Assembly: GCA_040954595.2 (NCBI GenBank)
Contig: CM082597.2
Location: forward strand, 5,089,244-5,153,243
DNA from: Balanoglossus misakiensis
Taxonomy: Eukaryota > Animalia > Hemichordata
Reading direction: 5' to 3'
DNA length: 64,000 nucleotides
The position numbers and the translations under genes are program-made. Below are positions 9,069-48,637 of this stretch, one piece after another (position 1 is the stretch's first letter; the number at the start of each line of letters is the position of its first letter). The notes beneath the pieces were generated by a model. It had not been told where the DNA came from and did no database searches. It was given only the letters and a program-made list of their open reading frames with translations.

Positions 9069-9077
9069 TGATGATGG

Positions 9078-16132: not shown

Positions 16133-16450
16133 ATGCAGTCTCCCAGTAACTCGACCCCGCCGAGTAGCGTCAACGGCGACTCGGGAGTCGAGGTGTCGCC
16201 CAGACCGCGGAGCATGACACCACGCCGCCGCGGCGGACGGGAGATACCGATCCCCGGCGGCATGATCGTCAACGATGACGACGAATCCGACGTTGCCAGC
16301 GACCGCGATTTCCTTATCCGGCCGACGACGCCGGGAGTCAGCCCCAGCCGGCCACCGACGCCTCCCGTGCGATCGGCGTCACCGTCCCCGAGTGCGAATT
16401 GGGGTATCCTCAAACGACATCGAGAACAAACAGAAGAACAACAACAAACG
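16133..16450 (+). CDS. DIXDC1: DIXDC1 candidate alternative first coding exon A (106 aa, Ser/Pro/Arg-rich)
   Basis: GC-rich ORF MQSPSNSTPPSS...RHREQTEEQQQT ends at ACG|GTAAGC in phase 0, matching the phase-0 acceptor at 48508; CpG-island context. Confidence 0.7.
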
Positions 16451-17196
16451 GTAAGCTGAGCTTCAAGTTGTCCCCCTTATAAACATAAAACCGACCTTAA
16501 AACGTCACCCAGTATATTCACTTGGACAGGTATTTCAATGTTCAGACTGTTTGGCCGTTTGCAGGGTTGATAAAATGTTTATGTCTGTGTCTGGTATATA
16601 AAATGTGACCCTATAACCGAGTCTGTTGGATTTTATTAAGTTTTATCCTATTTAAAGACCCACAGTCTGTCCCAGGTATTGTCGAAATAGCCATTCGTGT
16701 TGGTGTAGGTCAGTCGAGGTTTGACATACACGCTACTAGTGTACTCTTAATTAATTTGGCATAGCGATTGAAGTCAGTGACAGACTGACAAAAAATCGAG
16801 GTCTTACGTAAAACAACACGGAAATGACATATACCACTGCGGGTGACAATTATGGGGGAAAGTTAACAAGCTATTCTCAGTGGACTATGGTCATTACAAG
16901 GACGACTGCTGATTCCAAAGCGACTTGGCGCGTCCATGAAGAGAGATTCTCCGTCTGCACTGTGTTCAGAAAACTCCCAGTCGTTCGCTTCGGAGGCCCC
17001 CATGTTTGAAACCGAATATCTTCGACAAACAAGAGAGGTGTTTGGGTTTCAACCCGGCCACAATGGGCTTTCTGTAAACACGAAACGCTTGCCTGTCGAC
17101 GTCTTGGCTCATGCACGATTCGAAGAAGCGGAATATGGAAGCCAAGTTCCTAGCTTTGTCAGTGAGGGGGGCCAAAGTCGCCCACTTTTGACACTA

Positions 17197-17375
17197 CAGG
17201 CGAACCTGTCTATAGTGACCAGTCAAGGGACTTTCCTAAACTGGTCTTTATAGACAGGTAGCCTATATATAGAGGTTAATTAATGCAAATGTGAATTGCA
17301 CAAGGACTGTACAAACTTGGCCACTATATAGAGGTGACCACTATATAGAGGTGACCACTAACAGAGGTTTGACTG
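17197..17375. mobile_element. TA-flanked Tc1/mariner(pogo)-type MITE, copy 1
   Basis: TA|CAGGCGAACCTGTCTATAGTGACC ... CAGAGGTTTGACTG|TA, internal CCACTATATAGAGGTGA subrepeats. Confidence 0.75.
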
Positions 17376-17735
17376 TATTTTGGTCGTTCCCTTGAAATCT
17401 TACTTATGTTGTACAGCTCAATGACTTATACTCAGTGACGTTTTGGCCCTCACAATTGAACTCACACCCTTAAAACTGATATAACACAAGGGTCCTTAAG
17501 TCATTCAATTTTGCTCAATACCAATTTTGTGTGTGTGTTATAGATGTTATGGTCACAAGACGGGGTTTGAGTTCAGTTGTGACAACCAGTCACTGTGCAA
17601 ACTTCAGTGACCAGAACAATCTGCATAAATGAGCTATCAAAAAAACCTAAAAATAACGCCAAAAGTCAGGGACTTTGTTCCTTTAAATATAGCGTTTTTT
17701 TATCATGAAGCCAATTGGGAACCATTTTGTGATAA

Positions 17736-17882
17736 CAGTCAAATCTGTCTATAGTGGACAGTCAAGGCCGAAAGTGGCCTTCACAGACAGGTGTCTTTTG
17801 AAGACAGGTTAATTAAATAGTGGCCACTACTACATAAACGTTTTCACTAATATAAAGGTGGCAATTAACTCCGGGATGACTG
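17736..17882. mobile_element. TA-flanked MITE, degenerate copy 2 of the same family
   Basis: CAGTCAAATCTGTCTATAGTGGACAGTCAAGG ... GACTG|TA; shares AGACAGGT and GGTTAATT blocks with 17197-17375. Confidence 0.65.
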
Positions 17883-19882
17883 TATAAGAAATTTCGTATA
17901 CTATTACACCACCAAAATTCTCTGAAACTGCATTGATATTTTGCAACTTGCTTATTTTCAACATGTTAGAATTACAATTTTTACAACAATACTTAGTAAG
18001 TGGACCAGTGATACGTAGGGACCCAAAACTATTTTCAGACTATTTTCAATATCTTTTTATCACAGAGTAGTTCCAATGGTATATTTTTAGCCAGACCCAC
18101 GGAATTCTGTCTGGCCCCTCTTGAACTGGACTCCTGAACGTGGGATGAAATCGGTCAGGGGTTTAGTGCCATATTTGATCTTCTTAGCAATTCAGGAATG
18201 TTTGTTTCTCTGACATGTGCAGTCGACTCCATCAAAGTGACGTTACCATACTGTCACCAATGCTGCGTTAACGTTGCCGATGACAAGTGACGCCACACGC
18301 ACATCACGACAGAAATGTCTAATGGCTCAGGGCGCCGAACCACACATTCTGGCCGGTTGAACTTCGTGAAACTGGAATAGTGAAAATTTTAACAATTCTC
18401 TAAGTACGCAATGAAATAAGATTCGTCGTTGGTTGACAATACAGAAACGTTCAATCGTGAAACGTCTAGTCCGGAGAGAGATCCCAAAAACTGGCCAACT
18501 ATGGTGACAGTTTGACAGTAATTCGTACAAGGTTTGACGGTCCAGGCATAAACCCCGGCGCCGTATATGTGCATATTGGCCAAGCTGTGGTAAGCTAAAA
18601 GCACAGGGAAAAATCTAATTTATTGTAAAATTGATGAAATTCGTCCAAAAATATCTAATCTCTCGGAATAAAAAATAGGAATGAAGCAGCAGACGACAAT
18701 TTTTGAGCAGCGAGAGTGACAATAGAACAAAGCCCAGCTGGTTCACCACTCTGACCTATAATATGGCTGCCGTAAATAAATCAATGTAACTCCATAAACG
18801 GGAGGTCAGGTAGCCGTGTTTGGAAGGACCAGTCAATACATTGTTAAAATGGCTTCTCGTAATTCGTTCATTACTGAGGCCTTCTTCGGGTGACATTTTA
18901 TGGGGAAGGAAACAAGCCTCCTACAACGTGTACTAGAAAATCCAATTCTATATGTCTCTCCGTTATTTGCCTGCAGTGAAAGTCATCTGCGCATCACGAT
19001 TTTGAAGTTTCTCGAAAACACAAAGCGTATGCAGTGCAAGTACAAATATTTACAAGGAATAAATGCGCAAAATTGCCTCATGTTACAAATAAATATAAAG
19101 TGACAAGCTTTCTAGCGAGTTCTTAAAACGCAAATATGAAACTGATCGATTCTGTATTTTGTGAAGATAATGTATAGACAAACAGAGCTGTTTGAATGGT
19201 GAGAAAATACAAAGACCGTTAAATATGAACTTCTATGCTGAGCTTTGTGTGTTTCTCGGCATATTTGACAACAAGGCACAACAGAGCAACCTGTGGAATA
19301 TTGTAGATAATCATGTAAAGTCTTCTGTCGCTATACAATCAACAGGTGGTTGCTCCATAGACTTTCTATGTGAGTAGAATTGGTTATGTAACTGTAACAT
19401 TTCCATAAATTAACATGGGAGTGGGTGTTTTATTTTTGATAAAAATAATAAATAAATAAATAAATAAATAAATAATAAATAAATAAATAAGTTGGAGTTG
19501 ATGAAATAGATCGAATGTGAAATAGTGAAATTATTATCAAAAGTTACAGCTGCCGTCCGTTTCAACGTTAAAACGCAAATGTCATTCTTTGTGGCTGCGT
19601 AAAGGAAGTCAAGAGAAATAATTATAAACTGGCTGTATCTAGATATAAACGCTGATAATCTAATTGTGATCATGTTATGGTGTTATGGACTTTATTCGGA
19701 GATTTGACAGAACGTGACGAAATTGTCGCTGAGTGAAGAATGACGTAGGTGTTAAATGTGATCATATAACGCCCAAGTTTTCGATCGGTTGTAACGGGTT
19801 CTTTGACACAACAGTCGTTATCCATGACAGTTTATAGGGGGACAGAGAGGAGAGAATGGTGCAATAAAGTTAAACTTTTTCC

Positions 19883-26854: not shown

Positions 26855-26917
26855 ATGACCACGTCAAGCGGATCGCATCGCCCGAGAAAATCTCAGACGA
26901 CTTGGGAAGAATGGATG
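26855..26917 (+). CDS. DIXDC1: DIXDC1 candidate alternative first coding exon B (MTTSSGSHRPRKSQTTWEEWM)
   Basis: ATG with A at -3; ATG|GTAGGT donor in phase 0; lies at the end of a CpG-rich domain with a YY1 site (CCGCCATTTT, about 25983) upstream. Confidence 0.6.
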
Positions 26918-29900
26918 GTAGGTTTAAAATGATCTCGTTAATGGGTCAACTTAACACTTCATTGAAGTTTTGCGTGACAAATACACACAACTAATACGGT
27001 GTTCCTATTGTCCGTTGTGTTTCACAACTCCTATGCCTACTACTGCGTTTGCTTGTCCGGCCCCGCTACGTGAACTTTTCCCCAACCTCAAGGACCCCAG
27101 TCCCCTTAGATAGCGGACACCGCTTATTTGCCAATACTGATTACAGATTAGGCAGGTGGCCAGAACCGCTATGTTTGTTCGAGCTAAAATGCACACATGT
27201 ACGTGTACCTGATCATTTTTTTTCTTGCAGTGAGGCGCTTTTTTCGTAGAACAGTCTTGCCTTGTCAACATATCACTGTGATAGTGTGGTCGTCTATTCT
27301 AACTGAAATGATAACGCGACAAATCAAAATACGACGCCTATGGTAGTAGTGTTATGAAGGGACGCACACCTCCGATCCGTCTATAATTACATAATATAAA
27401 TCACCAACTTTATTCTTTTTCCATTCACACCATATCCAATTCAGCAGATCATACAATGATCAGTCTCTATAGATCTGTTTCCTGTTGACGTTTTTCTGTA
27501 TACCACTTGCTATCACTGTTCAACTACAGATGGTCAACAACGGTCACTGCGACTTGTAGACATAGCCTGCTTCAAGAACAAGTTCGTGGAACAAACTTGG
27601 CCACGAACTTGTTGACCAGTGGCCAGACAGCCACAAGGCCATTGAACCCAGGGCAGTAATCACCCTAACAACAAATCCCCCAAAATCCACTAACCCCCAT
27701 TGGCTACTTAATATTTAAAGTCAAAATAATATTTGACCTGCTAAGGTTCTTCAACAAACATGGCAAAATGAAACTTTATGTGCAAATATTTGAACTGACT
27801 TGGCAGTCGTCCTGTTGAAGTTTCTCAACAAATATTAAACATGTATTTTGAGTGTGTAGATCTCGCAAAAGTTAGTAAATAGCTAATTAAAAGATTCAGA
27901 GTATGTGTCTTAGGTTTGGAGCGTATTGTCATCATTTGTGTTCTATTGAAACTAATCTATTGAACGCAATTGACGTGAGATTTGGAATGAGATGACATCA
28001 TCTGAAACCGAATACAGGTTCTGATAAATAAAAAATCATAAAAAACTAATATTTCTACCTACTCTAATTCTGAAAAGCATGTTTCCAGAACCAAACAGTT
28101 ATTTTCTTTATTTTGGCCTCGTGGCAAATTGTCAAGTATTGACTGTTACCCCAGTGGCAGGGTCTTGGCTGGGGCCAAGCTGTTTCTACAAGTATTTGTG
28201 TACAACTCTTAAATAGTTTTATGGCGGGTTAATAGGTTGTATTGCTTTGTAGCTAAACTGTCAACCCGACTTGTGTAGTGTCTTGATGACAGGACGCTGT
28301 GGGTCTTTTAGTGCATAAGTTAAGGCAGCGTTGGTGGTCGCCCCGGCAACGGGCCCTCATCTGAGATGGAAATAAGGTGTTGGGTCGCGGCTAATCACCC
28401 GTGACATGAATCACATTACAATCCAGGTATTGTCAGCACTGCCTGTGATGTGTGTGTGGAATGCTACTGGTGAATGCTTTAAGTAGAATGAGCAAATAAT
28501 TGGATGAGATTCTAACAGATGTTTTTGGGAGAATTTGTTTGCGAGTTTAACAGGAAAGTTAAAAATCAAGGTGAAATTTACACTATGTACATGTATGTGT
28601 ATTGCAAAAAAAATCCCCTAAGTTACAACAATCGTCCCTTTAAACAAGGATATATATCAGTATATATTCTCTCTAAAATCATAGTAGTTTCCAGTTTAAC
28701 ATTATTACTTGAATTGAAAGTGATGTTCAATTTTTCATCACAAACATTTTAATCTGCCATTCACATCAGTGTGTGCAAAACACACACATGCGTTTCTCCA
28801 AAATATACAAGAAAAAGTGGATAATATTTTGATAACATGGTTTTGCTTGTAACATATGAGGGGAAAGTAGTAATGAAAACATTTAATGATACAATGGTGA
28901 AAGTATTCAAAATGAACTAATTTTTAATTTATTAAAAACATAGTGAGAGTTATTTATACCAATTTCACCAACTAGATGTATTATGGTTTCTATAATTGAC
29001 AATCTGTATGTTCCACACCACTTTCTACATTTGTGTCTGAACTCAGTAGGAGAGCAGTGTTCAGATGACAGCCAAGCCTAAACTGTGTCAGCACGCAGAC
29101 CCTGAATAAACACAGGCAACTACAACTCTTCACATGAAAGACAGGTAGCCATAACAGTTTGCGCAGACCCACGCAACTCGGGCCCCGGCTTGAAACAACA
29201 CGGGAGATTTGATACGTTGCCTTCAAATGGATTAGTTTTCAAGTGAATAATTTCTAGTGAACCACGCCCCAGCGCAAAGGGACACTGAGTCAACAGTGTC
29301 TGAAATGGAAAGTTGGCGTACTGTGAATGGAGACATTGAAAAGGGGGAGATTTAAAGCCTTTGATCACAATTCCTGTTATACAAACACAAGGATTTTTGT
29401 TAAAGGCTGCGTGAGCGAAAACAGTCTCTGCTTCTAAATCATAAATAACTGCACAGAACTTGGGCTCGTAAATGCTGACTAAACGTAGCATAATGAAGGG
29501 AAAACAGTCAAATAGGGATACTGAACTTGAAAGCTAGATGGTCACAAATGGTGCCCAAACGTAATATACTTTTAGTGTGGTTGTTGAACTTGTACAATAT
29601 TGCCACATTGTTGCAATACTGACGCAAATACACAATGCACTGGTCAGTCCCTTTACAACTGACCTTTGAGGTCATTACCATTGCGCATAATCCCCCCAGA
29701 TTAGCGGATTTAAGGGGGACAGCGACCTTGATGGTGTGCTTCTTTGTCTCCGTGGAAACGTTGGGAAAATGCAGCTGAGAATAATTAGTGGATTTAGCTA
29801 AGGTCAATGCCCCTGTTGTTGTAATGGTGAATTAGTCACCATGGAAACTGGTGACAACACAGGTGATAGTTGTTACAGTTAATTATAGGTGCATTGTATC

Positions 29901-32900
29901 TCATGCTTCATGCTTGTAAGAAGGTTGATATAAACAATATCACCCGTGTGTAAAGGTATGGATAGAAATTTCAACCATATTGGCAAGTTATAGCATTAAC
30001 ATACAGATTGTATGGTTCAACACACTGTGTCCCACTGTTCAGTATACAGATCACATAGAATCTAGTAAATTTTAACTTGTTCAATGAAATATAATGTGTC
30101 AGCCAAATAGCACCAGCTGGATTTTGTGTAGTGTAAAGGTTAAATTTGTAACAAAAATAGTGATCACTTGATGCGGATTGTATCAACACAACTTGGAAAG
30201 TTTATTGCAAGTGTTAGTGACCTGGACATTCCACTGCCAAGAAATAGTACCAAACAAAATGTTTTCGCGACTTAAGTTCAGTATTTCGTACTGGGTACAG
30301 CTTACATTGTTTACAAGTTATGCTTTATTAAGTCTTCACCGGGAAAGCTGTCGACATATCTTACTTTTCAGCACCCTGGTTTGACAGCAAATGGGGTGAA
30401 AGTTTTGAAGAAAATTGAGACCAGTCTGAAGTTGAGTAATTCACAGTGTCAGTGTCTTGCAGTATTATTGTAAGTCTCCGGAAATTGTTGCCATGCCAAC
30501 ATTAATCTGCAAGAAACAGGAATTATGGGTGATTTAATTTTGGCATGTTAGGATGACACTTGATCCTGCACCGATTGTGTAACCATGGCAATGTTAAAAC
30601 TACCATTTCATGCTCTTTGCATATAACCCAGATACATCATTTGCTTCTCTGGTACATACGTGTAGAAAACTCACATACTTACATAGTTGTTGACATCAAA
30701 ATAAAACATGTCTCGGTGTTTACATCTAAATCACATGCAGGAATTTTAACCCAGGCAGTTGATCAATGATCATACACAATACATTTTGACTGATTTTTTG
30801 ATACTATGTAACCATTGACTTAATCTTAAAAAGTTTTAAGTAAAATGTACTTACAATGTATCAAAAATTTCAGATAAATGCACCTTTTGAAACACATAAA
30901 GCACTTCCCAACCATGGACAATTTACCATAAATGTATACAATTGTGCATAATTTGTAAATGGTTTGTGTCTGATTCTGTATCTACAAAATGTCAGATATA
31001 CATATATGCAAATAAAGTGTTACCATTATTCCAAAATGTAGGGCAGTTATGACAGATGCTGTAAAAATATAAAATGGTGACAGTCACATTCAGAAATCAT
31101 ATTTTTCATCTTGAAAATTACAAATTAAAATTCTCAGTGGTATAGATTTCGCCTGTGAATTATTGTAGCTCATCAGAAACATGAAGAAAAGAAAAATTTT
31201 GAACACTGAAGGAAAGTACTAGTATGTGAGAGTGTAGTCATATATGCCGTTGGTTTTGAATTATTAATGTGGGTAATAAAATCGGATGGAGTTGATCCAG
31301 TGAAAACCATCTAGTTTTATTACCACGGAAACACTTTGCCATGTTATGGGCAGCTGTGATCGTTACAGTTGTGAAGGAAATTAGAAGTTCATCAATAAAG
31401 TGTAATGTTTGTGTGTCGAGAATGGTTTGTAGTTGAAGGTACAGGATGTGTATCTAGATTTTATGTCATCCTTCGTGCTATTGTAGGATAACCATCTCAT
31501 TATTCAAAATGAACACTTTTACAGGCGCACCTTCTCATAAGAAATGCAGTAAAAACTGATTGTTAGTGAGTAGATATGTTAGTTAGCAGATTTACAATCA
31601 GTGTGCCCTTTTGCAAGTTTGATTATCAAAATCTTTGAATCAATGTGAGAATTTCTAGAAATTTCTCTGTGGCAGCCGTATACTTTCACAGGTTAAATGG
31701 ATAACTTTCATGTGTTTTCTGAATGTATTGAATAAGTAACATAACTCTTTTTGACAATTTACCGTATTGTTTATTTAGGCTGCAAGTCAAGAGACCCTCT
31801 GGCTTGTAGAAGGTGATATGTCACCCTATTTAATAGGTGAAAGTGTACATGTGATACTAAACAGTGTTTTTGAAATACAATATGTAATCCTATGCTGTTA
31901 ACTAACATAGAATTTTATAAAATGTTGGACAGAAATGAATGAAAACCTCCAGTTTTGTGAAAAATATTGGCGTCGAACAATGTTTATAATGTGACAGAAT
32001 ACATCAATGTTCTGAAGGTGACCTACCAAATGATAATAGAAAAGTTAAACTTCTAAAAGTGAAGTCACACATCATTTGCTGTGGGGTGGGAACTTTTAGT
32101 TTAAAGGGCAAGACTGACCTTCGACCTCTACATCCCTCCGAGGCATCAACCGCTCAATGGATGGCCAGGGGGCTTGTGTTTTGAAACGGAGGACATTACA
32201 TTTGAACACACTGGTTTGAATTCAAAATGATCCTTGTAAAGGTGAAGGAATATTCAGGCAAACCTTGCCCTGTTTTATTTTGACACAGAAAGTGAGCTGT
32301 TTGTTTTGTGAAGAGATGGTCTTTTGTAGATCTGTTTATATGAGAATTTCTGTGATGATGAAGTCAGACATGCTGGCGCATGGATATGAAAAGTTAAGTG
32401 CGTTTGGTGATCCGGATTAATGGCTCTGCCAGTTGGAATCACATCCAGGGTTCTAATAAAACACTGCAATGAAATGATGCGTTGGTTTTGAGGCCTGGAA
32501 AAATTATTGCCACCTACTCTCCCAGCATGGTATTTGTGCAACTTTCATTTCAATGCAAACTATGCATGGTTGTCTGTGCCAGTTTAACAAACCACTCAGG
32601 TGTTGAATTTTCAAATCTCATCACATCAGTTTTTCGGTCACAGCTTGCTATGATGTGATTAATTTAGGCCATTTAAGTCTGTACCAGCGTTTATTAACAC
32701 ACACACTAAAGGGATCAGCTGAATGTAATTTGCAGTATCCCCATATCATAATTGGATTTTACTCTTCACAATTTACTAAATTGATTAATCTCCACCAAAA
32801 TAATTAGTATATAATCCACTTCTGTATGCTATGAAGGATAGTGTTAATAATATTAAACCCTACAGTATCACCAGTCAACTGAACCAAAATCTTACATAAA

Positions 32901-34502: not shown

Positions 34503-35058
34503 GTGAGAGCAGTTTGATATGTCTTTTAAGTCTGTGACACACAGGATAGTGTGACAGTGCGAATCTTGACACCTATTCTGGTACACACTGACAATATGAC
34601 TTCTGTGCAGACAATAGCAATTGTGTGTGGCGTAGCTACATGCAAGATAACTCCACGGGGAGTCTTGTACTAGCACTTACATTATAATATTCGGTTGTGG
34701 TGTTATAATTTTAGCATTGTTAGCATGCGTATATTATCAGCATGTTGCACGTTTCCATAACTGCCTGTAAGTGTTCAACATAGGTGTGAAATTTCTACAT
34801 GAATACATATAGGTATAGTACCCTTCAAAGGATTCTGGAAGTGTTGTAATTTATGTTGGTTAGTACACTTAGTTTGATGTTGTGCCATCACCATGGGATT
34901 ACGGAATCACCTATTCCCCAGTAACCATCGAGTGTTGTCAAAGTAGTTTGTTTTCAACAAAGTGGTTTGTGTTTGTCTGAATGTGACGCCAAGTGCCGAA
35001 ATGTCCTCCTGGTTGGAAAGACTCTAAGCATGTTGTGACCTGCGTCTCAATGTGTGTC

Positions 35059-35418
35059 CATTGTTGGAAGCCCATGATGTCCCCTGTACACTTTGTACTC
35101 GGGGCTTTTGAAGGTTAGCTCCCACTCTAGATCACTGTCACTGTTTCAGTATAGAACTGAGGTCAAATTGCAGGAAAATCGACGAAAGCATTTGCCAGAT
35201 CATATCATATCCTTAAAATAAAACTGGTATTTGCACTTTTTCTGTTACTTCATTGTTGGAAGCCCATGATGTCCCCTGTACTCGGTGCTTTTGAAGGTTC
35301 CCACTCTAGCTCACTTTAATCACGTCAGTATATAGAACTGAGGTCAAATTGCAGGAAAATCGACGTTAGCATTTGCCATCAAAGATCATATCCTCAAATA
35401 CAACTAGCATTTGCACTT
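35059..35418. repeat. Diverged tandem duplication (about 170-190-bp units)
   Basis: CATTGTTGGAAGCCCATGATGTCCCCTGTAC...AGAACTGAGGTCAAATTGCAGGAAAATCGACG...TTTGCACTT starting at 35059 and 35251. Confidence 0.9.
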
Positions 35419-36741
35419 GTAAACTTTGTCAGTGTTATTTCGCAAATACAGACTTTCAATTGTGATTATATTGTTTCTGTTTTATGATCAAACCTTTGAA
35501 AGGAAAAAGAGAATAGTATAGCCTGTGATGTAACACGAAGAATGGTGTTTGGTGTTTTATGGCAACTCATGCCAATAAAACCTTTGTTGTCAGGCTGCTA
35601 CACATTAGAAACTCAGGTAATATTATTACTGTAGCAAATAAACTTTGTACACCCAAGTCTCAATACATATAGGTAAACAGCTGGGAAGGTCTCTACATAA
35701 GCAGTTGAATACAGTATCACAAAATGTAACAAATTATCTTGTAGTTTATCAAAACACGGGATTCTGCTTCATTTTGCTGCACTGTCAATATACATGTATC
35801 ACGTACCATTATAGGGACATTATCACAGCTGTTTCCATATGTGTAATGAGACTTGCTAGTAAAAAGTTTACTTTCACCAGTAATAAAGAATACAGACCCA
35901 TATTAATTTAATAGGAGAGGAACAATAATAATTCAAGGACAAGACTGATTTCAGAATAGAATACTAAAAGGATACTGAGGAAATTTCATGATTTATACTG
36001 ATTGCACGTAAGAGTTATACAATGATTGTGCTTTGAGGGCACAGTAATATGTTCAGATGAAAGCTTTCGTCGATTTTTATGTTCTCACAATAAAATGTTA
36101 CTGGTGCTGAGTAAAATCTAGTGGCCGTTTCTACAAAACACAGGATGATGTTATCGAAAATGGTTTCTGGTAGTTTTTAGTTTAATTCACCTGTAATGCA
36201 AACTAACTGGCTGAGTTCCACTGGGCTATACTAAAAATATGTGTTATATTGTGCAGATATACTTTGTAGTCTGGTTTCCTGCTATACAATTGCAAAATGT
36301 GGGACTCAGAAAATTGTTTCCCTGGCTATAGCGGAATACAGAAAATCATCTTGAAATCATGTAATGAACATATACATGTAAGTAACACATATATTGGTAG
36401 AATGTATTCCAGCTATTCTATACTTTAGTGACATCTGAATGTGCCTTGGTTTTGAGTGAGAGCAGGTGATTTTGATGTAGAGTCAATTATCAAACCAATC
36501 ACAGCTTTTTGTCAGAATCGAAACTGGGACAAATAATCTCGCCTACCTGAATGAATAAATTATCACAATGAGATCGACGTTAGTGCCAGCAAGCCGTGAT
36601 CCATTACACTTTGACACGCGCGGTGCATATTGTCAAATCGAGCGTTGTCGAGGAAATTGGAATCACTTGCAGCTATATTTCCTTCTCTATGGTGTTCCTG
36701 AGAGTAGATTTGTGTCGTTTTGGAGATTTTCACTGCGGAAA

Positions 36742-36771
36742 ATGAGTGCTCCGGTTAATGGGAAATACGTG
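36742..36771 (+). CDS. DIXDC1: DIXDC1 candidate alternative first coding exon D (MSAPVNGKYV)
   Basis: AAAATG start; GTG|GTAAGT perfect donor, phase 0; CpG cluster and CCAAT box (about 36496) upstream. Confidence 0.6.
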
Positions 36772-39700
36772 GTAAGTACAGTACAGGCTTGTTCGTATGC
36801 ACTGTACAGTGAGTGGGTGTTGCTGTTACATGCAGAATATCTGCAATTTGACTTTCCAGGAATATATTCCAGCCTTAGTTTCCCCTCATTATTTCTCCAT
36901 GTACCTTCAAATTCAGCCGGAAAAAATCCAGACAAAATCTGGTCATTTTTCATTCTGAAACACACCAGTTCTGATTCAGTGTTCGATTAGCATTCTAGCA
37001 ACATTAACTATAACCCTGGAAGTCTTCTAAGGGATTTACGTATTGTTAAGTGGCAAATTTCAAATGAGAAATCCAAGGTTTCAGAACTATGGAAAATCAT
37101 AGCTGCATACCTAATCCATTCTGTAGAATCACATCATGCTAAAACAGCAGTGGTTTAGGATAGATTATTACATTGAATCGGTTTTCCAGTAAGTCGATTT
37201 GTGGTGATAGAGAGAGTATTACAATTACAATGTTAATTGCTCTGAAAGAACCGTCTAATGAGTCTTTGTTATGTCGGAAACATCATCACAAAGAAAGTGT
37301 GATTATCCTATCATTCAGCTAGAGTATGCAAACATTAATTTGATCAGCAGTCTAGTGATGTAACTTATCTGGCAGAAACGTTAGCAGTATTGGTTTTTAA
37401 TCTAAGATGAAACGTAACACTGTGATAATATTTGATTACACAGCAAGAATCAAAACGTGCAGTTGCCTAAGAATCAAGAGGAATCTGAGGAATGTATTTG
37501 TGTACCTTGTATCTTGATATAGTCACTCATTCTCATATTTCATTCTGACAGATAATTTTACTTCAATAGACTATTATTGTCACATATATCAATGCTTTTC
37601 TCAGAACCCCCAGGTAACATTTACCTGGACACTCCCCTTAACAAAAACACAGTATTCAAATGAAGTAGCCTTTCTTTCTGTGAGTGTTCATTATTTTATG
37701 ACTTCTGAAGAACCTCAAAATCCTAACGTTTCCATGGTAACACAGGAGCATTTGTCTTGCAGTCGTTTTAAGGTCAGTGGAGTGACATTCACTTTTATAG
37801 GGAGGTTGCTAGGAAATGTGGATGTAAAGCCATAAATGTCGGAGATATTTGTCTCCATTAGTGACATTAGTCTGAAAAGGTCAGGGTTTCTTTTGCTTGT
37901 GTGCAATGCATACAGGTAATAAATTCTGTGGATGGTAGTATAAAATTATCCACAAGCAATTGGGGGATTAAACACAATTTTTATTGTAATTGAAAATCAT
38001 ATATTTCTATAATATTGACGACTTACATTGTAATCAGGAGAAAAAGTACAGTATAAAATGTCTAAACGTACAGTAAAACCTCAATAAGCTGTACCCTGTT
38101 TAATCTCGAAACCTGTCTTTTATTCTGACATTCCTGACATTGTTACTGAACTCTCTCACTGTTTATAAACTATCCTATGGAAAAGTAGGGCTATAACTTG
38201 AATATCCAAAAAGCACTCACTGGTTTCCCCTAAAATATGGAATCTTGACATACATGTATTGTAAATTTTTATAAATTTCCATTTTTTCAAGCATTAGGTG
38301 TACAGTGTTGGTTTTATACCATGTTTTAGTATAGTGCCATTGATAACCTGTCTTTGCACTGTAACATTCAAAGGTGTTTGCAATGGTATTTGATCAGGAT
38401 AAGCCAATTACCATTAACTGGTAGCGTTTAAGTCAGTACCATGGAGTAAACTTAGCGTCCAATTCCTGTGAGGAATCGTTGCTATTGTACTACAAATTGA
38501 GCAACCTGCTTACAATGCTAATGACATTTACAAGTTAGAATGGATTTGCAAGTCCGAGGCATAAATTGTCGATGGATCTACATTCAACAATACAGTTTCC
38601 CCATTCTTGAGTTGGTATCAGGATGGTGCATCAGCTTATCGTCTTCGTTTTGTTCATTGTTATCCTTTGTTTTTCAAATGACAATTGGCCATTGTTTGAG
38701 GAAAACAATTTGAATTGTTGTGTGCTGGCACTGCAATCAACAGTATTGAGTTCTCTGCGGCAATTACCACCATTGTGAGTCAACTGTAAGTTGAATTCTG
38801 ATGATAGCCAGGGCAAATCTAATCTATCCATTGATGTCTTGTTCTTTTGATAAGAAGACTTAATGCAAATCAAGACTTGAGTTCTCGTATTGTGGTAAGA
38901 AAAAAATGTAGCACAAGAAAGCCATTTCACTCAATTGCTGGACTATTGACGACAGCGCCCTCTAATTTCAAATAAATGTGTTGTAGAGGGCGCCATTCAT
39001 ATAAGAGGTGTCTGTCATGTATTTATAGGCATTTTCTGATAACATGCATTTATTTTGTTGAAGTTAATTAAAGTGACAATATGCCTATTTTTATGAGTCT
39101 GCACAAAAATATAAGAATATACAAAATGATGCACAGGTAAAAAATGCAAAAAAAAATTATTGCTAAATCTGATCAGAGATGATATTTCAGCTATGTTCAA
39201 TCAGGTGATGTGATGTGATTGTGGGTTTGAACTTAAGATATGTATCCATGTCACTGATAACAAATCTTTGTGGAAGTATTTCAAGTGGTTGTTTTGTCAA
39301 ATGCTTTTGTTCAAATTCGGTTCCCTTAGTCAGGTTACCATCCTATAAGGTTTGAACATTTATTTTTTCAATCCAAGTTTGTTTAAACACTGGCATGTTT
39401 GCATTTCAACGGTGGACAGAGCAATTGCTTTGCTAGTGGGAAGTGCAAAACTCACCTGACAAAATAATTCAAAAATGCATGGTTATTTTTTCCACAATAA
39501 TAGCAAGTATTTATTTCCTTTATTTTTAATTTTCTTCTCACCATTATCAACCTTCCCACCCCCAGTTTCTAATACAAAAGTCCAAATACACCACTGAAAA
39601 CAATAGTGGTTTGGACCATTTGCGATGGTTAGGGGGAGTATTTTATAATCTCTTGATGCTGATGGATGAAAATTTTCCAGTATTGTCCCAAATAGACAAA

Positions 39701-40426
39701 GTTATCAACCCTGCAGTTAGGAAAATGAAATTAGATAATCATAAATTTTGACCATCAAAAATAAAAAGTGGGGGGGGGGGGGGGAATGGTATCCTGAAAT
39801 AGTTATAAATTATTTTTGGGTTGTCTATGTGATAACACCATGATTATTTGAAATACAGAAAAGTGTTTATTCTGTACTCTTAGAACTGAAGAGCTGTGAC
39901 GCAGACTTTGCCAGAGTGTAAATACATTTCTATTTTTAATAGAAAATAACATGTCTGTCATCTGTTGCTAAGTAAACGTGGACAAAATGTGTTGACAACA
40001 TGGGTGCTGTTTGCTGGTGATTATTAATGCAGTGGAAATTGATATTAAATTGAAGAGCGTTTTGGGTGGAGTCACTTTTCCTGTTATTCAGGCATCCGAT
40101 GGTGATGATGACGATATGCTAATGATTTGGTAACCATGGCTACAAGGCAGCTGATTCAGAATGTTGCCAATTTGATGACCTTATGCAAACACGACCCCTG
40201 CGAATGGCAGAGGTCAGCGCACATGACCAGATCGCTTCGGGTGTATCATAAATATTCCCCCGAGAGTCGTGTTGAGGGATTCGGTGCAATGTACACCATG
40301 GCTGCGCGTCCTTCCTCCCGTTTTCCTGTCTTACGTCATTCAGTGCGGTGACTGGGGTACACTGTGGTGATTGTTTTCACACGTGGCGTATGTCACTGTC
40401 ACAATGTCCGTACACTGCCAATGATC

Positions 40427-40459
40427 ATGGGGAATGCAAAATCAACCAAAATCACCGAG
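40427..40459 (+). CDS. DIXDC1: DIXDC1 candidate alternative first coding exon E (MGNAKSTKITE)
   Basis: ATCATGG strong Kozak (a weaker in-frame ATG at 40421); GAG|GTGAGT perfect donor, phase 0; CpG cluster at 40190-40410. Confidence 0.65.
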
Positions 40460-43400
40460 GTGAGTCTAGTCATAATTGGGCGTCGTTTAAATATCCCAGG
40501 TGTGTTTCTGAAGTGTGTGCGGCTTAACTGATCAATTTATCCAGCCCCGCATATGGTATATACAATGTATGTATATCTTCACAACACAGCACATTTTACA
40601 GTTAAGGTTTCCGTGCCAAGTACAGCTTGACGGAAGTGCGATGATTACATCGTCCATATGTTAAGTAACGTGATCAGAGCTTCTACCTGTGTTGTCAATT
40701 TCAATTTTTGCAAAAACAATTACAGATTTTGATCTATTATTTTCATTCCAGTTGTACTGCCCAATTTTCTATGTTCTAAGTTTTATAGCTGCAATGTCAT
40801 CATAGGTACATAACTGCCAAACCATTTGTCAATTGATATACAACAGTTATACTGGTGCTCGCGTATCTGTCCAGTGTATAATGATCCCACCCAGGCAATG
40901 CCTGGGTTTGTCCGAACCCATTTCAATAGCTGCTGTTAAATTTATTACGCTGGTAATGTTTTTCATTGTGTAGTCAGACAATAGCCAATGACATACTCAA
41001 TAGTTGCAGGCTGATCGTGAACTCTGTGTGTGTATTAATGCTAGATGTTGAACTCGGCAATGTGACACCATACAATCATGTGGATAACTGTCCATTTAGT
41101 TTCATTAGGGCAGATCAATAACCGTTTGAAGTACGGATAATCTGTTAGAGCAAGCTGGTAATATAGCATAACATAAAATATATATTTCTTTGCTAGTGTG
41201 TGATCAGAAATCTAATTATCAATTTTTTTCTCCAGAATTTTATCCAGACTTATACTTGAAAAAAAAAGTTTGTTCAGAATTATTGTTTACATGTAATACT
41301 GGAGTGCATGCATTTAATTTCTAAAAAGACAATTTGGGGGATTTTGGCTTCACTAATTATATTACCGAAATAAAACCAATAGGATTATAAGTAAGCTTAA
41401 TAGTATCATGCAAGTCTGTATATAAATAAATCAAAAACAGGGAAATATCAGGCTTGCAGTAAAGTCCACAGACTACATGTACTAGTCGTGTAAATTTTCA
41501 CTGTGTACATCTGCCGAACATGTGTAGATTTTAATGAAAATATCTGAGAAAGCTTGTGAGTGTTGAATTCCACCATAGACAACATACAAAATTCATGAAA
41601 AAAGTGACGAAAATGTCACTATGATTGAAAATATCGGCTTAAAAAATAAAAAGTGTACACGTTTGAAGGTTTTATGTTTTATACGCAGTTTGAATTGACA
41701 ACATATTTTTCTGTCTAGGCAAACACAGACTGGTGATTAATCAAATCCTGTTATGCAGTAATCAATATTTGCACATTTGCCTAAAACTCATGCAACAAAC
41801 CTGTATTCATGGAATTGATGACTGAAAAGATTACTATGCTAATTGACTTCAGTTGACCATATCACAACTTAACTGTGATTTTAATGCAAACATGTGATTC
41901 CTGTTTGGGGTGACTTCACAGGGAAACCCAAATTTCCAAATGCCATTTCCACCCAAAGTAGACTGCGAGAAACCAACAGCAAAGTGATAAAGTTACAATA
42001 ACAGGAGACAGATATGACCAAAATGTAACAAATCATGGAAACAGTTGGCACCGGAGTGTCTCCAAGCTTTTGTATTTTGCTACATTGTAGTTTAAATGCA
42101 GTTTATCTATTGCATCAGATCTACAATGTTACAGTTTCATGTGCTACATTTTAGTCAATTTGTCTCCTATAGTGTTACAATTTGTTTCTTCCAACATGTT
42201 TTTGCAATACAATTTATGTTTTGGGTATATATACATTGCAAACGACAGGGTGAAAGAATATTGGAGAGGTTCTAACTGCTTAACTCAAGTGGGATGAATC
42301 CTATAAATTTTCTCTGATTTTTGTGTACTTTGTTCCCAGTGCATTGATTTTTATGTTCCAGCTTGACATGTGTGTAAACAAAATAAATAGTTGCATCATG
42401 GATTGAACTTGATAAAAAGTACTAAAAATGGTTGGCAAAAAATGGCATGAAGGTTGATATGTCGAATATCGTCCACAGAAATTACACTACCAATTGATTT
42501 TATTGTGTGTATGTGATGCAGATGTTAAAGCAGTGTGATATAAGGACCTTTATACAAGGACATGTCAATGACATCATATAGTATCAAACATACTGGTTCG
42601 ATAAAATATTAAACAATCTTGGAGTTCTATGTGTGTATCAATGAATTCTACTGTGTGTGAATATTCACAGGTCTTATCGGTATAGTCGTTTTACTTATTA
42701 GGTAATATTAAGCTAAAATCATGTCAGGGCATAGGGACTTCTTTATCTAACACTGTACTAGTCCCTGGAATTATGTTAAGTAGTGTTTTGCCTGAGGGGT
42801 GTCCTCACTGAAAATTCAGGGTGTGAAATTGTCGTTCATCTTTGGCAGGATTACAAATAGTCCTAGTAAAATGGAAAAAATGACAAAAATAAGCGAACAT
42901 GTAAAAAAAATTTCTGTCTCATGTGGCATATTAATACTACCTGTTTACAACTTCAGTCTGTGTGTTGAAAGTCACAGTTCATAACCTGTGACTATCAGAT
43001 GGGGATAGCTTGACATTTTGATAAATTTGATCGATAAGCATATACCGGTACAGTAATCGTGTTAATGCGTATCAACACATTAGCGAATGATTTGTAACTG
43101 TGAAAAAAAACCTGTGAAAATTTCAGCCCATTGCAGAAGGCTTTACTGCTGAAGGTCACAAAGCATATAGACATACGCAGCAGTCTTAGGACACAGCCGG
43201 TCATCTGAATCATGTGTGTAATTTACGGATTTAAAGATTTCAAACGTCATCATCTGTTTTAAGGATTTTACTATGAAGTAAACACTTGAAACAAAATACT
43301 TATTTACTGTGATTTATCAATAGTGTACGTACACTTTAGTTTTAATTTCATTACAAAATCTTGAATACAAAAAAAATATATGGTCAGAATAAGTTGAACA

Positions 43401-44566
43401 CCTTATGTAATACTCATAATGTAATTCTATCTCATTGATAAACTATCTTCTTTAAAAGTGCATATAAAAATCAATGAATCACTTAATTAATCTTAATGTT
43501 AAATGTCCTATTGAAAGTACAAATGTTACATAGTGTTTGTTGAATTCAAATAAACTGTGTCCTGTAGAAAGTACATGTGCAAATGTTAGATGTTAAATTG
43601 AAATAACCACACCCTGTTACTGTTGTAGCAACCAAAGGCACTATACAGGTATTACTCATATAAGATGTAATGGATGAATAAACTTTTAGATAAATGGAAA
43701 ATATTGGCCAATTGTCATGACAACCAGGTGGATGTTGTGACTCATCATATTGAATCTATCAGGAGATGTTGATAAAAAGTGATGTTATTGCCACACCCAA
43801 GGCCAGTGAACGACATCATTATTTTTTACAATACCTGTCAGTGATGTAGAAAGTAAAAACACCCTCTTTAATTCCTCCATATTTTAATATTTCAGTGGCA
43901 AATATCTTTCATATTTGTGTACGAAATTGTATTTTCTTTTGTCTTCTATTTTAGAAGATGTGTATACTCTATTCTAATAATCTACATTGATGTTTAATAG
44001 TTGCTGGTACGATTATGCTGGAATTAAGACCCTGAATTTAAAAATACATATTTGAAATGCCTTGAAAGTCCTTCAGTTAAATGAAATACATGTGCATACA
44101 TGTTATCACTGAACAACACCCGAGCCATCATAAAAAAATAATTATTTTGTAGTTATTGTTGGAAACCAGTTGGGACCTAAATAGCTCTAAACATAAAAAA
44201 ATGTTTTGCCAAACTACCTAATCTAAATATTGTTTTGTTAATAATAATGAAAAATTTTCAGTGTCAGGACATGTACAATATTTGACACCTCTAACCATGC
44301 ATGATAATTAAATTCCACAAAGGACCGAGTCTGCAACATTGCCCACTTATATACTGGAATTTTAATGTCTATTCTTTTTATGAAACTGTTTTTCTTATTG
44401 TGTTGTAAATCTGTGCGGAAAATCAATAATAGAAAATACCATGGTTGTTATAAAATGTACCACTGACTTGAAATCTTGGGCTTTGTTTTGGGTTTAATTC
44501 CAACAAAGATTTTGGGCTACAGGATATGCCGAAAGACGTTGGCTGAATTATATTTTTCATCAATAT

Positions 44567-44605
44567 ATGAATTCGAAACTTTCTGACTTGGCTATAAATC
44601 CCCAA
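44567..44605 (+). CDS. DIXDC1: DIXDC1 candidate alternative first coding exon F (MNSKLSDLAINPQ)
   Basis: CAA|GTAAGT donor, phase 0; small CpG cluster in a CpG-poor intron. Confidence 0.45.
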
Positions 44606-46873
44606 GTAAGTTGTATGAGCGATATACCGCAACATCCAATAATAGGCGACACCTGGAAAATGAATGCACCACACAAACCTCCAGCTCCAGATTTGCAACT
44701 TTTGTATTTATATAAACAATGTGACCATTGGCATTGTTATCAATGTAGACATTGTATCAAAATAAATTGGAAGTGTGATGAAAAATTTGACACATTGTTT
44801 GCAATGGTGTACAGTGTAATACAAAGTAACAATCACATTGTTTCCAATAATGTACATTATAGCAGTTATACTTGTGGCATATTTTGACTTGCTGGCAATA
44901 TGTGACCCAATAGCCCTCACACCCCACTTCCCTCTTTAGAGGTCTAACCTTACTATAGAAAACAATGGGATTGGACTGAACCATGGTGGTGAAAGGGGTA
45001 ATCTGAAATTGTTGGTTTTATGCTGTTTTCTTACACTGTATAGCTGTCATGAAGCATAGGTCAGTTTCTTTAAACTTATGATCATGATGTAGATCATTGC
45101 ATTAGAGAGTAAATTAAATGATGAATCAAGTCTTTGCCAATGTTTTCTTTTCTCGGATTGCAATGTACCGCTAACTCTAATACATGTGACGGTGTCTTAG
45201 TATTTGGGACACAGATTTTGACATAGTTGTTAAATGGTCACTTACACCAGTATAAGGAAGCTATACAATACAGTTCAATAGGGTGTTGTGTTTGTTTTAC
45301 AGGCTTTTCATTGAGATGTTTCAAATGGGTCACCTTTTTATAGATGGATGTCTTTCACACCCCTTGGCCTATGTCCTCATTGGACTTAAGCATTCAACAC
45401 ACAATTACAGTTTTGAATCGATGTTGATCCATCAGCAACATAATTAAGTATTAAGAAATACAACAAATCAAGCCAATATACATGTAGCCAACTGAAAATG
45501 CAGATTTAATATTGTAAGCATTTCTGAAACTTGCTCCAGGAATATAGGTCGATCTTAGTAGAGGTCAAACAACAATAGGCTGCCTGCATGATCTTTGTGT
45601 AAAATTTAAATCATTTTGTTGCTTTGAAAGTATTTAGATGTTGATGTAGTTGTGCAAGTACAAACATTGTGTCCACATCTGTGACATGTTTTGAACCCAC
45701 CAGGAATTTTAAATGGACATTATTTGATTGACGAAAATTGCCCAAGCTTCTCTTGTAACGTTGAGTGTTCAAAACAAATTACATACGTAATCAGAAATTG
45801 TATATCTGTGTTTGCCGAATTGAAATAAGTGTGTCTAAACGTGATACTTGCAACCTTTTATATCTTTCTGTTGGACATATTTTCATGCACACATATACAG
45901 TTGCACCTGTAATGAAAATCCCCTAGCTATTTTGTGATAGAAATTCCAACTGCAATTAATAAAAGTAGTAAATTAAAATTGATTTCTCCCGATGTCTGGC
46001 ATACAAAAAAATATATTTTGCACTAGTGCCTGTACGCCCAATAGAAGAGTCCACTTGATAGTAATCATCAGATATGGGGTCCCTAGATCTAAGCACTCAA
46101 ATCTCTCTCCCCTTTCATAAATGTATTCTTCCGTAAAGTTAAGAGATCGTGTATTCACCTACTTGCAACACAAGACAGTAGTCCATGACATGCCCTGGAA
46201 ATAAATAATACAAAGTGTAAGACGTCGCCTTGGACAGTGCATGGCCCCACTCGTCAAAAAATGCCATTAAAATTCCTCCAGATCTACCGTATATCTTCTT
46301 TTAGTTTGCAGATTTCATTGTAGTATTATGGACTGACAACATGGCTATACATACATCAAAAATTAATCCAAATCCAAATCATTGTATAGGTCGTTTTTTA
46401 ACTGATGACATCATCATTTTCATTGTCTTAAATCCATGTATTGATTAATTAATGCATTATATCAGAATCTGAATAAAAAAAATACACTTCTACAATAATA
46501 GGTCTTTAAATAAATTTCTAACATTTTCTAAATAAATTTCAACATTTTCTAGAATTTTATTTGAATTTGAAATGTTAACTGTCAATGAAATTGAAAAATA
46601 TATGCCAGAATGTTCAGAAAAGATTTTAATATACAAAATGTGCTTTCTTACATCAATAATCGCATGAATTGAATATTCAGCTTAAAACGAAATTGCAATT
46701 AAGATTTTATGATAGCTGGGTTATATGGTACACATACTCTTTTTGCCCATACGTCAAGCTCACAGGGGACATTTTATTGTATGGCTAGAAATTGAAGTTG
46801 TACGGTAGGAAATTGAATCTGTCTTGAGGCCAAGGAATGTCTGTACGTAAGAGGGATTTGTGTACAATGATTG

Positions 46874-47035
46874 ATGATCTGTACCTACACACAACAGTAC
46901 TGCGGCCATAACTACAGTCAAAGTGTGTCCATTGATGAGCTGTGGTCTGGTTTTCTATCTTATTGGTTGCACTTGCTAAATGCCAAAATTCTGCACTGTC
47001 ACTGGCCGATCGGTTTTCGCCACCGCGCAGCAGAG
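46874..47035 (+). CDS. DIXDC1: DIXDC1 candidate alternative first coding exon G (54 aa, MICTYTQQYC...FRHRAAE)
   Basis: Open frame to GAG|GTAATG, phase 0; CpG cluster at the 3' end. Confidence 0.3.
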
Positions 47036-47839
47036 GTAATGTACTCAACTTGTGATCATATCTAAACTTTAGTTGTCTGGGACTATATACACACAGTCAG
47101 AATTGCGACTGGAATGTACTGTACACTAGCTGTTTGTCTGTTCTTTGGTGGCCATAACTATTGTGTTCAGAAATGCTTTGTTGAATAAGTTGTCTGGTAC
47201 ATTATGTTTATACTCTTGTAGTCGTCAACAACAACAGATTATAGTATCAGAGTTTTTGTATTCGCCAGACACAGGCAATGTTCGTAAATTTTCTCCATGT
47301 ACATACATGGTGTAGTTTTGTGGTCGTAACACTATGGAATGTGAAATTGGTATCCATATTGAAATAGATAGTAGTAATTTATGGTGGTCTCCTTGTCAAG
47401 ATCTGCAGGCTTCATTCTGTGGTTTTTGCATGAATGCAGATCTTTGATTCTGTAATTCAATAACTCATCTCATTGTCCATTTTCCCCCATGTTTAATAGT
47501 GTATTTAATATATAACAAACCTTTGTCTTACACATTCAATGCCTTATAGTATTCAAATATGTATTTAGTCTGTAACACTACACGTCTGCCATGTAGTGTG
47601 TAAGGGGACACTTTCTGATGAATGTCGTAGTAGCCACAAAGTAATTTTCTCAAATATCAGACAAAAACAAACCCATAAATTCTCTCCTATTAGTTTTCAC
47701 ATGAAGGATTTCCTTCAAAAATGAGTAGTAATATTGTAGTTTGTTTGGTTAAGTGATTTAAGTTAAATATGTCAAACACAAAAATGGATCTTACCAGTCA
47801 AATATTTAAGCAAAAATTAATATGGAGACTTGAGTTTAT

Positions 47840-47888
47840 AGGTCATCAGAGGTCAGGACTTCCTGTACCTTTAGGCACTTCCTGTACC
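47840..47888 (+). promoter_or_regulatory. Perfect DR4 nuclear-receptor element followed by two ETS-type sites
   Basis: AGGTCA-tcag-AGGTCA (47840-47855); ACTTCCTGTACC twice (47858, 47877). Confidence 0.5.
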
Positions 47889-48507
47889 AGAAATGAGGCT
47901 AACCCCAATTCTCAAGGCTTACAATAGATTTCCCTTTCAAACAGAAAATCTGTTAAAAGTGACTTAATTATTATAGATTGTGTTTCCCGATGTGTGAATG
48001 TGGTACATTTAATCGAGTATGCCATCAGAAATGCTGATTGATACAAAATGGCCGCATTTGTTTACAGTTAAAGAGAGTAATGACTTCCCTTCCAAGCATG
48101 TCACATTCTTTCCCTTCACTCTGAATATAATCCACATCTGGTCGCCATGACCTCAGAACCACAACAACGTGCATATTTTTTTGCAAAATAGGGAGGTGGC
48201 AGTAAAGTTCAAAGATAATTTATTAAAAGTTAAAATATACTGATGTGTACAAGCTGTAGCTGACATAATTCATTGTAATTAAAAAAAAATGAATATTAAA
48301 GTTACACACAGTACTCATTTAAGCCTTTTGAACAGCTAACATGTTCACATGAAACATGTGATTCCTGACCTGATAACACAGTGGTAATTTCAACCACATA
48401 ACAGGATGTAAGGTCACTCAGACAGTGAATCTTCCAAATTATCGGCCATAATTACATTTGTATGTGATTTATTAATTAATTTTTCGTGTATTTCTGCCTT
48501 TTTTCAG

Positions 48508-48637
48508 CAACAATTACAAGCCTATGTAGCATGGGCTAACTCACAGCTGAAGAAGCGGCCAGGATGTCAGCTGGTGGAGGATCTCAAGCGAGATATGCAA
48601 GATGGCGTGGCATTGGTCCATCTTGTGGAAATTGTCT
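48508..48637 (+). CDS. DIXDC1: DIXDC1 first common exon (CH domain start)
   Basis: ttttttcAG|CAA CAA TTA CAA GCC; T|GTAAGT. Confidence 0.93.

What the first reader, a model, noticed from the sequence alone, without database searches (positions are those of the whole stretch)
16133..48637. Array of up to seven phase-0 alternative first exons feeding one DIXDC1 constant region
Seen: the first common exon (48508) has no ATG and needs a phase-0 donor. The 32 kb upstream holds seven short ATG-initiated frames ending at strong donors, all in phase 0 (16133-16450, 26855-26917, 34488-34502, 36742-36771, 40427-40459, 44567-44605, 46874-47035). Most sit in local CpG clusters within a CpG-poor background. 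Known: vertebrate DIXDC1/Ccd1 uses alternative promoters, mostly giving CH-plus versus CH-minus forms. Inference: this is a variable-first-exon / constant-region design, loosely like protocadherin or plectin loci, that swaps the N-terminal tag on the CH domain of a Wnt-pathway DIX scaffold. Caveat: I searched for phase-0 candidates, so some may be chance.
Basis: partly seen in the sequence, partly recalled or inferred. Interest (0 to 1): 0.8.

Follow-up and report, generated by a model that had tools for sequence, protein, structure and literature searches.

The report
Acorn worm DIXDC1 with swappable starts
An acorn-worm Wnt-pathway scaffold gene (DIXDC1) carries five, probably six, unrelated short starting exons that likely each splice onto one shared body, a layout already annotated in a close relative and widespread in animals, and one start is predicted to add a membrane-anchoring lipid.

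Summary
The core finding is real. The window holds an intact 18-exon DIXDC1 constant region (CH, coiled coil, DIX), 88% identical to Ptychodera flava. Six P. flava RefSeq isoforms share one identical body and differ only in the peptide before the residue encoded at 48508. Five of the seven candidate exons match those peptides (16133, 26855, 34488, 40427, 46874). 36742 is probable, with a non-conserved frame. 44567 has no support. Sequence alone did not beat chance; conservation did. No RNA run was listed, so splicing in this species and first-exon status are inferred. Corrections: the common exon has an in-frame ATG (48595), and CpG depletion begins only near 27.4 kb. The exons are not paralogous, so the design is plectin/dystonin-like, not protocadherin-like. 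Several starts at this junction also occur in cnidarians, molluscs, echinoderms and vertebrates (23 of 27 species examined). Not found in my paper searches: a WxxW start predicted to extend CH helix A, and an N-myristoylation-consensus start (MGNAKS) shared by two acorn-worm families. The scan index held no DIXDC1 finding but similar notes on navigator genes. New member of a known kind.

The parts
16133..16450 (+). Start exon 1: 106-aa Pro/Ser-rich, probably disordered tag
   Evidence: 77/110 identical columns to P. flava X1, 58/108 to Glandiceps X1, 52/110 to Saccoglossus; no Pfam match
26855..26917 (+). Start exon 2: 21-aa tag ending WEEWM; the widely shared WxxW class
   Evidence: 13/22 to P. 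flava X3, 10/24 to Glandiceps X2; 54 of 180 unique tags end W-x-x-W-x; begins CH helix A in the model of the P. flava isoform
34488..34502 (+). Start exon 3: 5-aa mini-tag MNFTQ
   Evidence: Identical to P. flava X6; donor score 6.9; third-highest CpG peak
36742..36771 (+). Probable start exon 4: donor likely orthologous to P. flava X5 (MEKFV), reading frame not conserved
   Evidence: Best DNA match to back-translated MEKFV among 3021 plus-strand GT sites (12.5; next 11.5; best minus-strand control 12), but not among the top four protein-level matches; donor 5.7; second-highest CpG peak
40427..40459 (+). Start exon 5: MGNAKSTKITE, fits the N-myristoylation consensus M-G-x-x-x-S/T
   Evidence: 9/11 to P. 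flava X4 and 9/11 to Glandiceps X3; strongest donor, 7.6; top CpG peak; consensus from PMC3724820. An in-frame ATG lies two codons upstream at 40421
44567..44605 (+). Unsupported candidate, likely chance
   Evidence: Donor 5.1, but no matching tag and CpG at the 64th percentile
46874..47035 (+). Start exon 6: 54-aa moderately hydrophobic tag
   Evidence: 25/56 to P. flava X2, score 91 versus control 30; tblastn E 2e-10; not seen in Glandiceps or Saccoglossus isoforms
48508..48637 (+). First common exon: CH-domain helix A onward, phase-0 acceptor, in-frame internal ATG at 48595
   Evidence: Pfam CH E 3.5e-7; 95% to P. flava; ATG list
48874..57639 (+). Remaining 17 constant exons: rest of CH, coiled coils, DIX domain, stop
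   Evidence: 18 exons with AG/GT ends give 709 aa with a single terminal stop; 88% to Ptychodera, 74% Glandiceps, 70% Saccoglossus; Pfam DIX
57640..59003 (+). Likely 3' UTR; AATAAA at 58473, 58633, 58992, 58998
   Evidence: Sequence; the end is inferred
27400..59000 (.). CpG-depleted zone beginning about 0.5 kb after start exon 2; likely gene-body methylation footprint
   Evidence: Change point 27400; CpG o/e 0.45 and 0.43 inside, 1.01-1.04 upstream; GpC o/e unchanged

Best explanation
This is an acorn-worm DIXDC1 gene in which five, probably six, unrelated upstream exons likely each start from their own promoter and splice in phase 0 onto one shared CH, coiled-coil and DIX body, so that promoter choice would set the protein's N-terminal tag. 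Shown: the frames, the intact body, and the match of five exons to isoform-specific N-termini of P. flava. Inferred: splicing in this species, one promoter per exon, and function. The tags likely fall into two kinds. Three conserved peptides would change behaviour: WEEW is predicted to extend helix A of the CH domain, MGNAKS is predicted to be myristoylated and to bias the scaffold to membranes, and the 106-aa tag would add a disordered Pro/Ser-rich arm. The mini-tags (MNFTQ and the 36742 exon) likely supply little more than a start codon under another promoter. The CpG step after 26917 suggests exon 2 is the main, broadly active start.
For: Six P. flava isoforms have one identical 707-aa body and six different tags; four Glandiceps isoforms likewise share one 735-aa body. 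Five tags map to the named exons with exact ends, far above controls. No P. flava or Glandiceps isoform joins two tags, and six candidate upstream acceptors, for five of the exons, give no in-frame read-through. A 5-aa first exon can hardly be predicted without transcript data (inference from how RefSeq models are built; recalled). WxxW-CH fusions appear as about 700-aa proteins on 2.4-3.1 kb Logan contigs, i.e. spliced transcripts of other animals (P0006, P0023, P0077, P0081, P0090). The AlphaFold model of P. flava X3 has helix 17-35 starting at the first Trp of the tag. The fold matches NAV2 and CH1-type domains. CpG peaks sit on three internal exons.
Against: The P. flava evidence is predicted RefSeq isoforms of a relative, not transcripts of this species. 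In oysters the WxxW exon is also used as an internal exon behind other starts (P0190, P0354, P0355), and 40427 has a strong acceptor-like site at 40344 (score 15.5), so 'first exon' may be wrong for some. The Saccoglossus MGN tag lacks Ser/Thr at position 6 and does not align with 40427. An in-frame ATG at 40421 would give MIMG and remove the N-terminal Gly if used. The known actin-binding motif of human DIXDC1 lies at 198-206, outside the tag (PMC13364712 supplement), and is absent from the acorn-worm rows of the alignment, so an effect of tags on actin binding is unsupported. pLDDT averages only 63 over residues 11-20 of the model.
Confidence: 0.75

Rival explanations
1. Promoter array only: the exons are real, but the peptides are by-products and every isoform works alike; only expression place and time differ.
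For: Several tags are 1-5 residues (MNFTQ, MEKFV, Glandiceps MSK, oyster ME, abalone M). The 36742 exon seems to have changed frame relative to P. flava. Tags turn over quickly between phyla. [quoted passage not shown]
Against: MGNAKS is 9/11 identical across two families whose bodies are 74-88% identical to this one; the 106-aa tag is about 50-70% conserved across three families; WxxW recurs from molluscs to amphioxus.
Confidence: 0.25
2. Some tag exons are mutually exclusive or cassette second exons behind one or a few non-coding leader exons (possibly from the promoter shared with the KMT2-type gene near 7.9 kb), not separate first exons.
For: Oysters splice other starts into the WxxW exon. 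Identical WxxW proteins have several accessions in Asterias and Patiria, which suggests different 5' UTRs. Acceptor-like sites at 40344, 40092 and 26763. Plus-strand donors at 7978, 8305 and 9524.
Against: Local CpG peaks on 34488, 36742 and 40427 fit unmethylated promoters. No two-tag isoform in P. flava or Glandiceps.
Confidence: 0.2
3. The mini-exons are chance ATG..GT frames picked by a phase-0 search.
For: Shuffles give 2.5 +/- 1.7 such strong-donor frames against 5 observed. True most likely for 44567.
Against: Five exons match P. flava isoform N-termini end to end, far above controls.
Confidence: 0.03

Closest known systems
Ptychodera flava dixin-like isoforms X1-X6 (XP_070548719.1 to XP_070548724.1) and Glandiceps talaboti X1-X5 (XP_077985604.1 to XP_077985608.1)
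   Same: Same body (88% and 74%), same junction, five orthologous tags with P. flava and three with Glandiceps.
   Different: The 36742 exon is in another frame; 44567 has no counterpart; Glandiceps MSK has no exact match here. These are automatic annotations; I found no paper on them.
Mouse and human DIXDC1/Ccd1 isoforms (Shiomi et al. 2005, not held; seen only as cited in PMC9932814 and PMC5552852, passages)
   Same: Multiple promoters; at least two peptides before the same CH residue (MLACL.. and MGT.. types). The names A-alpha-L and A-beta2-L in PMC5552852 suggest several CH-bearing forms (my inference).
   Different: None of the vertebrate-named tags listed is similar to the acorn-worm tags or ends in WxxW. 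Vertebrates have an internal actin-binding motif at 198-206 that this protein lacks.
Dystonin/BPAG1, MACF1, Drosophila Shot and plectin alternative N-termini
   Same: Unrelated first exons placed before a CH1-type domain; BPAG1a3 carries an N-terminal myristoylation motif and at least four N-termini exist in Shot and BPAG1 (PMC3352950, passages); plectin is listed as a variable-first-exon gene (PMC1885805, passages).
   Different: DIXDC1 has one CH domain, not a tandem pair, and no plakin or spectrin repeats; its output end is a polymerising DIX domain.
Clustered protocadherins, UGT1, GCNT2
   Same: Tandem variable region upstream of shared constant exons, in one reading phase.
   Different: Their variable exons are large, similar paralogues with a shared upstream motif (PMC1885805); here they are 15-318 nt and unrelated.

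Membership tests
DIXDC1/Ccd1 (dixin) | N-terminal single CH domain | tested here: met
   Pfam CH on 48508-48636; NAV2 and alpha-actinin CH are the top CH matches
DIXDC1/Ccd1 (dixin) | Central coiled coil and C-terminal Ccd1-type DIX domain | tested here: met
   Pfam DIX on 57224-57331; the 88%-identical P. flava protein matches Dixin DIX at E 1.6e-41 versus Dvl2 1.7e-14 and models long helices at 299-600
DIXDC1/Ccd1 (dixin) | Promotes Wnt/beta-catenin signalling with Dishevelled | not testable with these tools
   Shown for mouse protein in PMC9932814 (passages)
Plectin/dystonin-type non-paralogous variable first exons | Several coding exons joined in one phase to one common exon | tested here: met
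   By orthology with P. flava isoforms; not by reads of this species
Plectin/dystonin-type non-paralogous variable first exons | Each exon has its own promoter and is first | tested here: inconclusive
   CpG peaks on three of five internal candidates; acceptor-like sites and oyster cassette use argue caution
Plectin/dystonin-type non-paralogous variable first exons | Tags give isoform-specific localisation | not testable with these tools
   Myristoylation consensus in one tag
Protocadherin/UGT1-type clusters | Variable exons are similar paralogues of near-equal length | tested here: not met
   21 tag pairs at chance level; no repeat family among the 20 shown links the exons
Protocadherin/UGT1-type clusters | Conserved motif upstream of each variable exon | tested here: not met
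   Shared 6-8-mers at or below null; 20 of 21 upstream-pair alignment scores within the random range; three recalled CTCF-like patterns absent. A simple k-mer test can miss a degenerate motif
N-myristoylated proteins (40427 isoform) | Met1-Gly2-x-x-x-Ser/Thr6 | tested here: met
   MGNAKS here, in P. flava and in Glandiceps; only 2 of 180 database tags fit; consensus from PMC3724820
N-myristoylated proteins (40427 isoform) | Actual acylation and membrane binding | not testable with these tools
   Needs labelling; the upstream in-frame ATG at 40421 could bypass it

The most novel reading that the evidence does not exclude
DIXDC1 has been a swap-the-tag locus since before cnidarians and bilaterians split, with a fixed splice junction at the start of CH helix A. 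Lineages filled the slot independently with lipid anchors (myristoyl consensus in acorn worms, short Cys-rich tags in echinoderms), so promoter choice alone would switch a Wnt DIX-polymer scaffold between cytosolic and membrane-tethered states. Vertebrates lost the ancestral WxxW tag and gained a separate internal actin-binding motif.
Probability: 0.25. Interest if true: 0.7.

Novelty: new member of a known kind. Interest (0 to 1): 0.4.

Why it matters
DIX-domain signalling depends on local concentration, so a naturally membrane-anchored DIXDC1 isoform would be a simple way to tune Wnt output by promoter choice. The locus offers a matched series (one body, six tags) in an animal group used to study Wnt patterning (recalled). 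It also shows that work on one vertebrate 'long isoform' samples a single state of an old variable slot. Against a higher score: the isoforms are already in RefSeq for a close relative, multiple promoters are known for mouse Ccd1, and thousands of genes have several first exons.

Tried and rejected
No RNA holder was listed for 56813-58990, so no reads were laid; this is no evidence either way. No whole genome is held, and no DNA of relatives was seen, so exon order and promoter conservation are untested. The 16133 tag found 0 hits among 1.84 billion representatives, although relatives were found through full-length proteins; the blank is uninformative. The search of shorter proteins gave no new named acorn-worm tag among the 120 listed of 183. 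Rfam: 0 matches. Rejected: the protocadherin-type duplication model; the idea that the validated actin-binding motif of DIXDC1 lies in a first exon (it is at 198-206); homology of the echinoderm 'RW..L.AW' tag or the Cys-rich tags to any window frame (no convincing tblastn hit in the part shown; that output was cut). Paper searches: (0 papers; the 15 listed of 20 were all plant CCD1 papers; 4 Cdk5 reviews; listing only) showed no paper on invertebrate DIXDC1 starts or a lipidated DIXDC1; the library lacks most subscription journals, including Shiomi 2005. Supplementary file 1 of PMC13364712 could not be read.
Full report
Observation. All seven frames exist as written and end in phase 0 at GT; the exon at 48508 reads in phase 0. 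On an approximate donor matrix, five of the six strongest donors in 16.0-48.4 kb are named candidates. Shuffles give 2.5 +/- 1.7 such frames (max 8) and phase 2 gives four, so sequence alone does not settle it. Three details are wrong or loose. The common exon has an in-frame ATG at 48595. Two donors are not strong (26917 scores 3.8, 47035 scores 2.6). The CpG-poor background starts only at about 27.4 kb.

The gene. Eighteen exons from 48508 to 57639, all with AG/GT ends, encode 709 residues with one terminal stop. Identity is 88% to Ptychodera flava, 74% to Glandiceps talaboti and 70% to Saccoglossus kowalevskii, which belong to three acorn-worm families. The window is therefore most likely an enteropneust closer to Ptychodera. 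CH and DIX domains are confirmed, and the relative's DIX is of the Ccd1 type.

The decisive test. No RNA run was listed, so I used annotated isoforms of relatives. P. flava has six RefSeq isoforms with one identical 707-aa body and six different N-termini, all ending at the residue before QQLQAY. I aligned each against all 1198 phase-0 ATG..GT frames in 4-48.4 kb. Five picked the named exon with the named ends: 16133 (77/110), 46874 (25/56), 26855 (13/22), 40427 (9/11) and 34488 (5/5). Scores were 370, 91, 66, 43 and 27 against minus-strand controls of 16, 30, 14, 11 and 14. Glandiceps shares three of these tags and Saccoglossus one clearly. The sixth P. flava tag, MEKFV, has no protein-level match, but its back-translation fits best, of 3021 GT sites, at donor 36771, by one point, with a control only half a point lower. 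That donor is strong and sits on the second-highest CpG peak, so I call it probable; its near ATG is out of frame here and the in-frame start is 36742. 44567 has no match and no CpG peak and is what the shuffles predict by chance.

How widespread. Among 27 species for which I retrieved two or more proteins (a selection biased towards many isoforms), 23 have at least two different sequences before this junction: two cnidarians, six molluscs, eight of ten echinoderms, three acorn worms and three vertebrates are among them. The four with one were Diadema setosum, Apostichopus, Branchiostoma belcheri and Lingula. Some counts are inflated by an allelic pair, an alternative donor, an internal cassette or two annotation versions. 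Ostrea edulis shows about five distinct ends in 15 of its 25 cluster members, so the acorn-worm number is high but not unique. A tag ending W-x-x-W-x makes up 54 of 180 unique tags and occurs in annelid, brachiopod, mollusc, echinoderm, acorn-worm and amphioxus entries, but in none of the vertebrate- or cnidarian-named ones listed. In oysters this exon is also used internally behind other starts.

Mechanism. Shown: frames, body, orthology. Inferred: one promoter per exon, with splicing of the transcribed donor to 48508. Support is the CpG peaks on 40427, 36742 and 34488, no two-tag isoform in acorn worms, and no in-frame read-through from six candidate acceptors. The AlphaFold model of P. flava X3 starts helix A at the first Trp of the tag (H17-35; residues 1-14 under pLDDT 50, block 11-20 at 63, block 21-30 at 91), and that Trp aligns near the Trp before helix A of alpha-actinin CH1, with a two-residue gap. 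MGNAKS fits the myristoylation consensus of PMC3724820 (passages); only its two acorn-worm orthologues do so among 180 tags. An in-frame ATG at 40421 and the non-matching Saccoglossus MGN tag are caveats. The validated actin-binding motif of human DIXDC1 is at 198-206 and reported from vertebrates only (PMC13364712: passages, section 7, supplement rows), and it is absent here, so I do not claim that tags tune actin binding. The CpG step 0.5 kb after 26917 fits gene-body methylation of constantly transcribed invertebrate genes (PMC11292947, PMC4776710; search listing only) and would make exon 2 the main start; this is inference.

Comparison. The tags and their upstream DNA are unrelated, which fails the protocadherin/UGT1 definition in PMC1885805 (passages). 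The match is to dystonin, MACF1, Shot and plectin, where unrelated first exons precede a CH1-type domain and BPAG1a3 has a myristoylation motif (PMC3352950, passages). Multiple promoters are known for mouse Ccd1 (PMC9932814, PMC5552852; passages; the primary paper was not held). My searches showed nothing on invertebrate DIXDC1 starts or a lipidated DIXDC1. Earlier scan notes report several starts and an MGN start in navigator genes, whose CH domain is the closest solved relative; I did not check them.

Verdict. Real: five exons supported, one probable, one likely chance. New member of a known kind. Interest 0.4; 0.7 if the membrane-switch reading proved true (probability about 0.25).

Noticed in passing
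window 7899 to 62, minus strand: A KMT2A/B (MLL)-type gene lies head to head with DIXDC1: start MARYRFPGRPG at 7899 (resembles the recalled menin-binding motif), a 764-aa open stretch at 1467-3761 and a CXXC finger. Human KMT2A and DIXDC1 are both on 11q23 (recalled), so the linkage may be old.
   Followed up: partly
window 50045-50294: Third constant exon is a sharp CpG peak (26 CpG in 250 bp) inside the CpG-poor gene body; it could mark an internal promoter for a CH-less form.
   Followed up: no
window 28250-28550, 29150-29450, 43000-43300: Three more CpG peaks in the poor zone with no named exon; possible extra promoters, enhancers or repeats.
   Followed up: partly
window 48595: In-frame ATG inside the common exon; a non-coding or out-of-phase leader would give a form lacking CH helix A, as annotated for Glandiceps X5.
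   Followed up: partly
window 60941-63635, plus strand: Downstream gene with a guanylate-binding-protein N-terminal domain (Pfam GBP), preceded by a helical-looking exon at 60941-61220 with no Pfam match.
   Followed up: partly
window 7978, 8305, 9524: Plus-strand donor-like sites (6.3, 3.8, 5.9) close to the KMT2-type start; candidates for a divergent non-coding leader.
   Followed up: no
window 33008-33219: Perfect tandem duplication of 106 nt; also long hairpins at 19896-19956 and 20421-20502 and microsatellites at 8950-9136 and about 55060-55180.
   Followed up: no
proteins P0029, P0043, P0049, P0054: Four echinoderm species have short Cys-rich tags (e.g. W-C-x-C/W-C-x-x-C) at the same junction, suggestive of S-acylation.
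   Followed up: no
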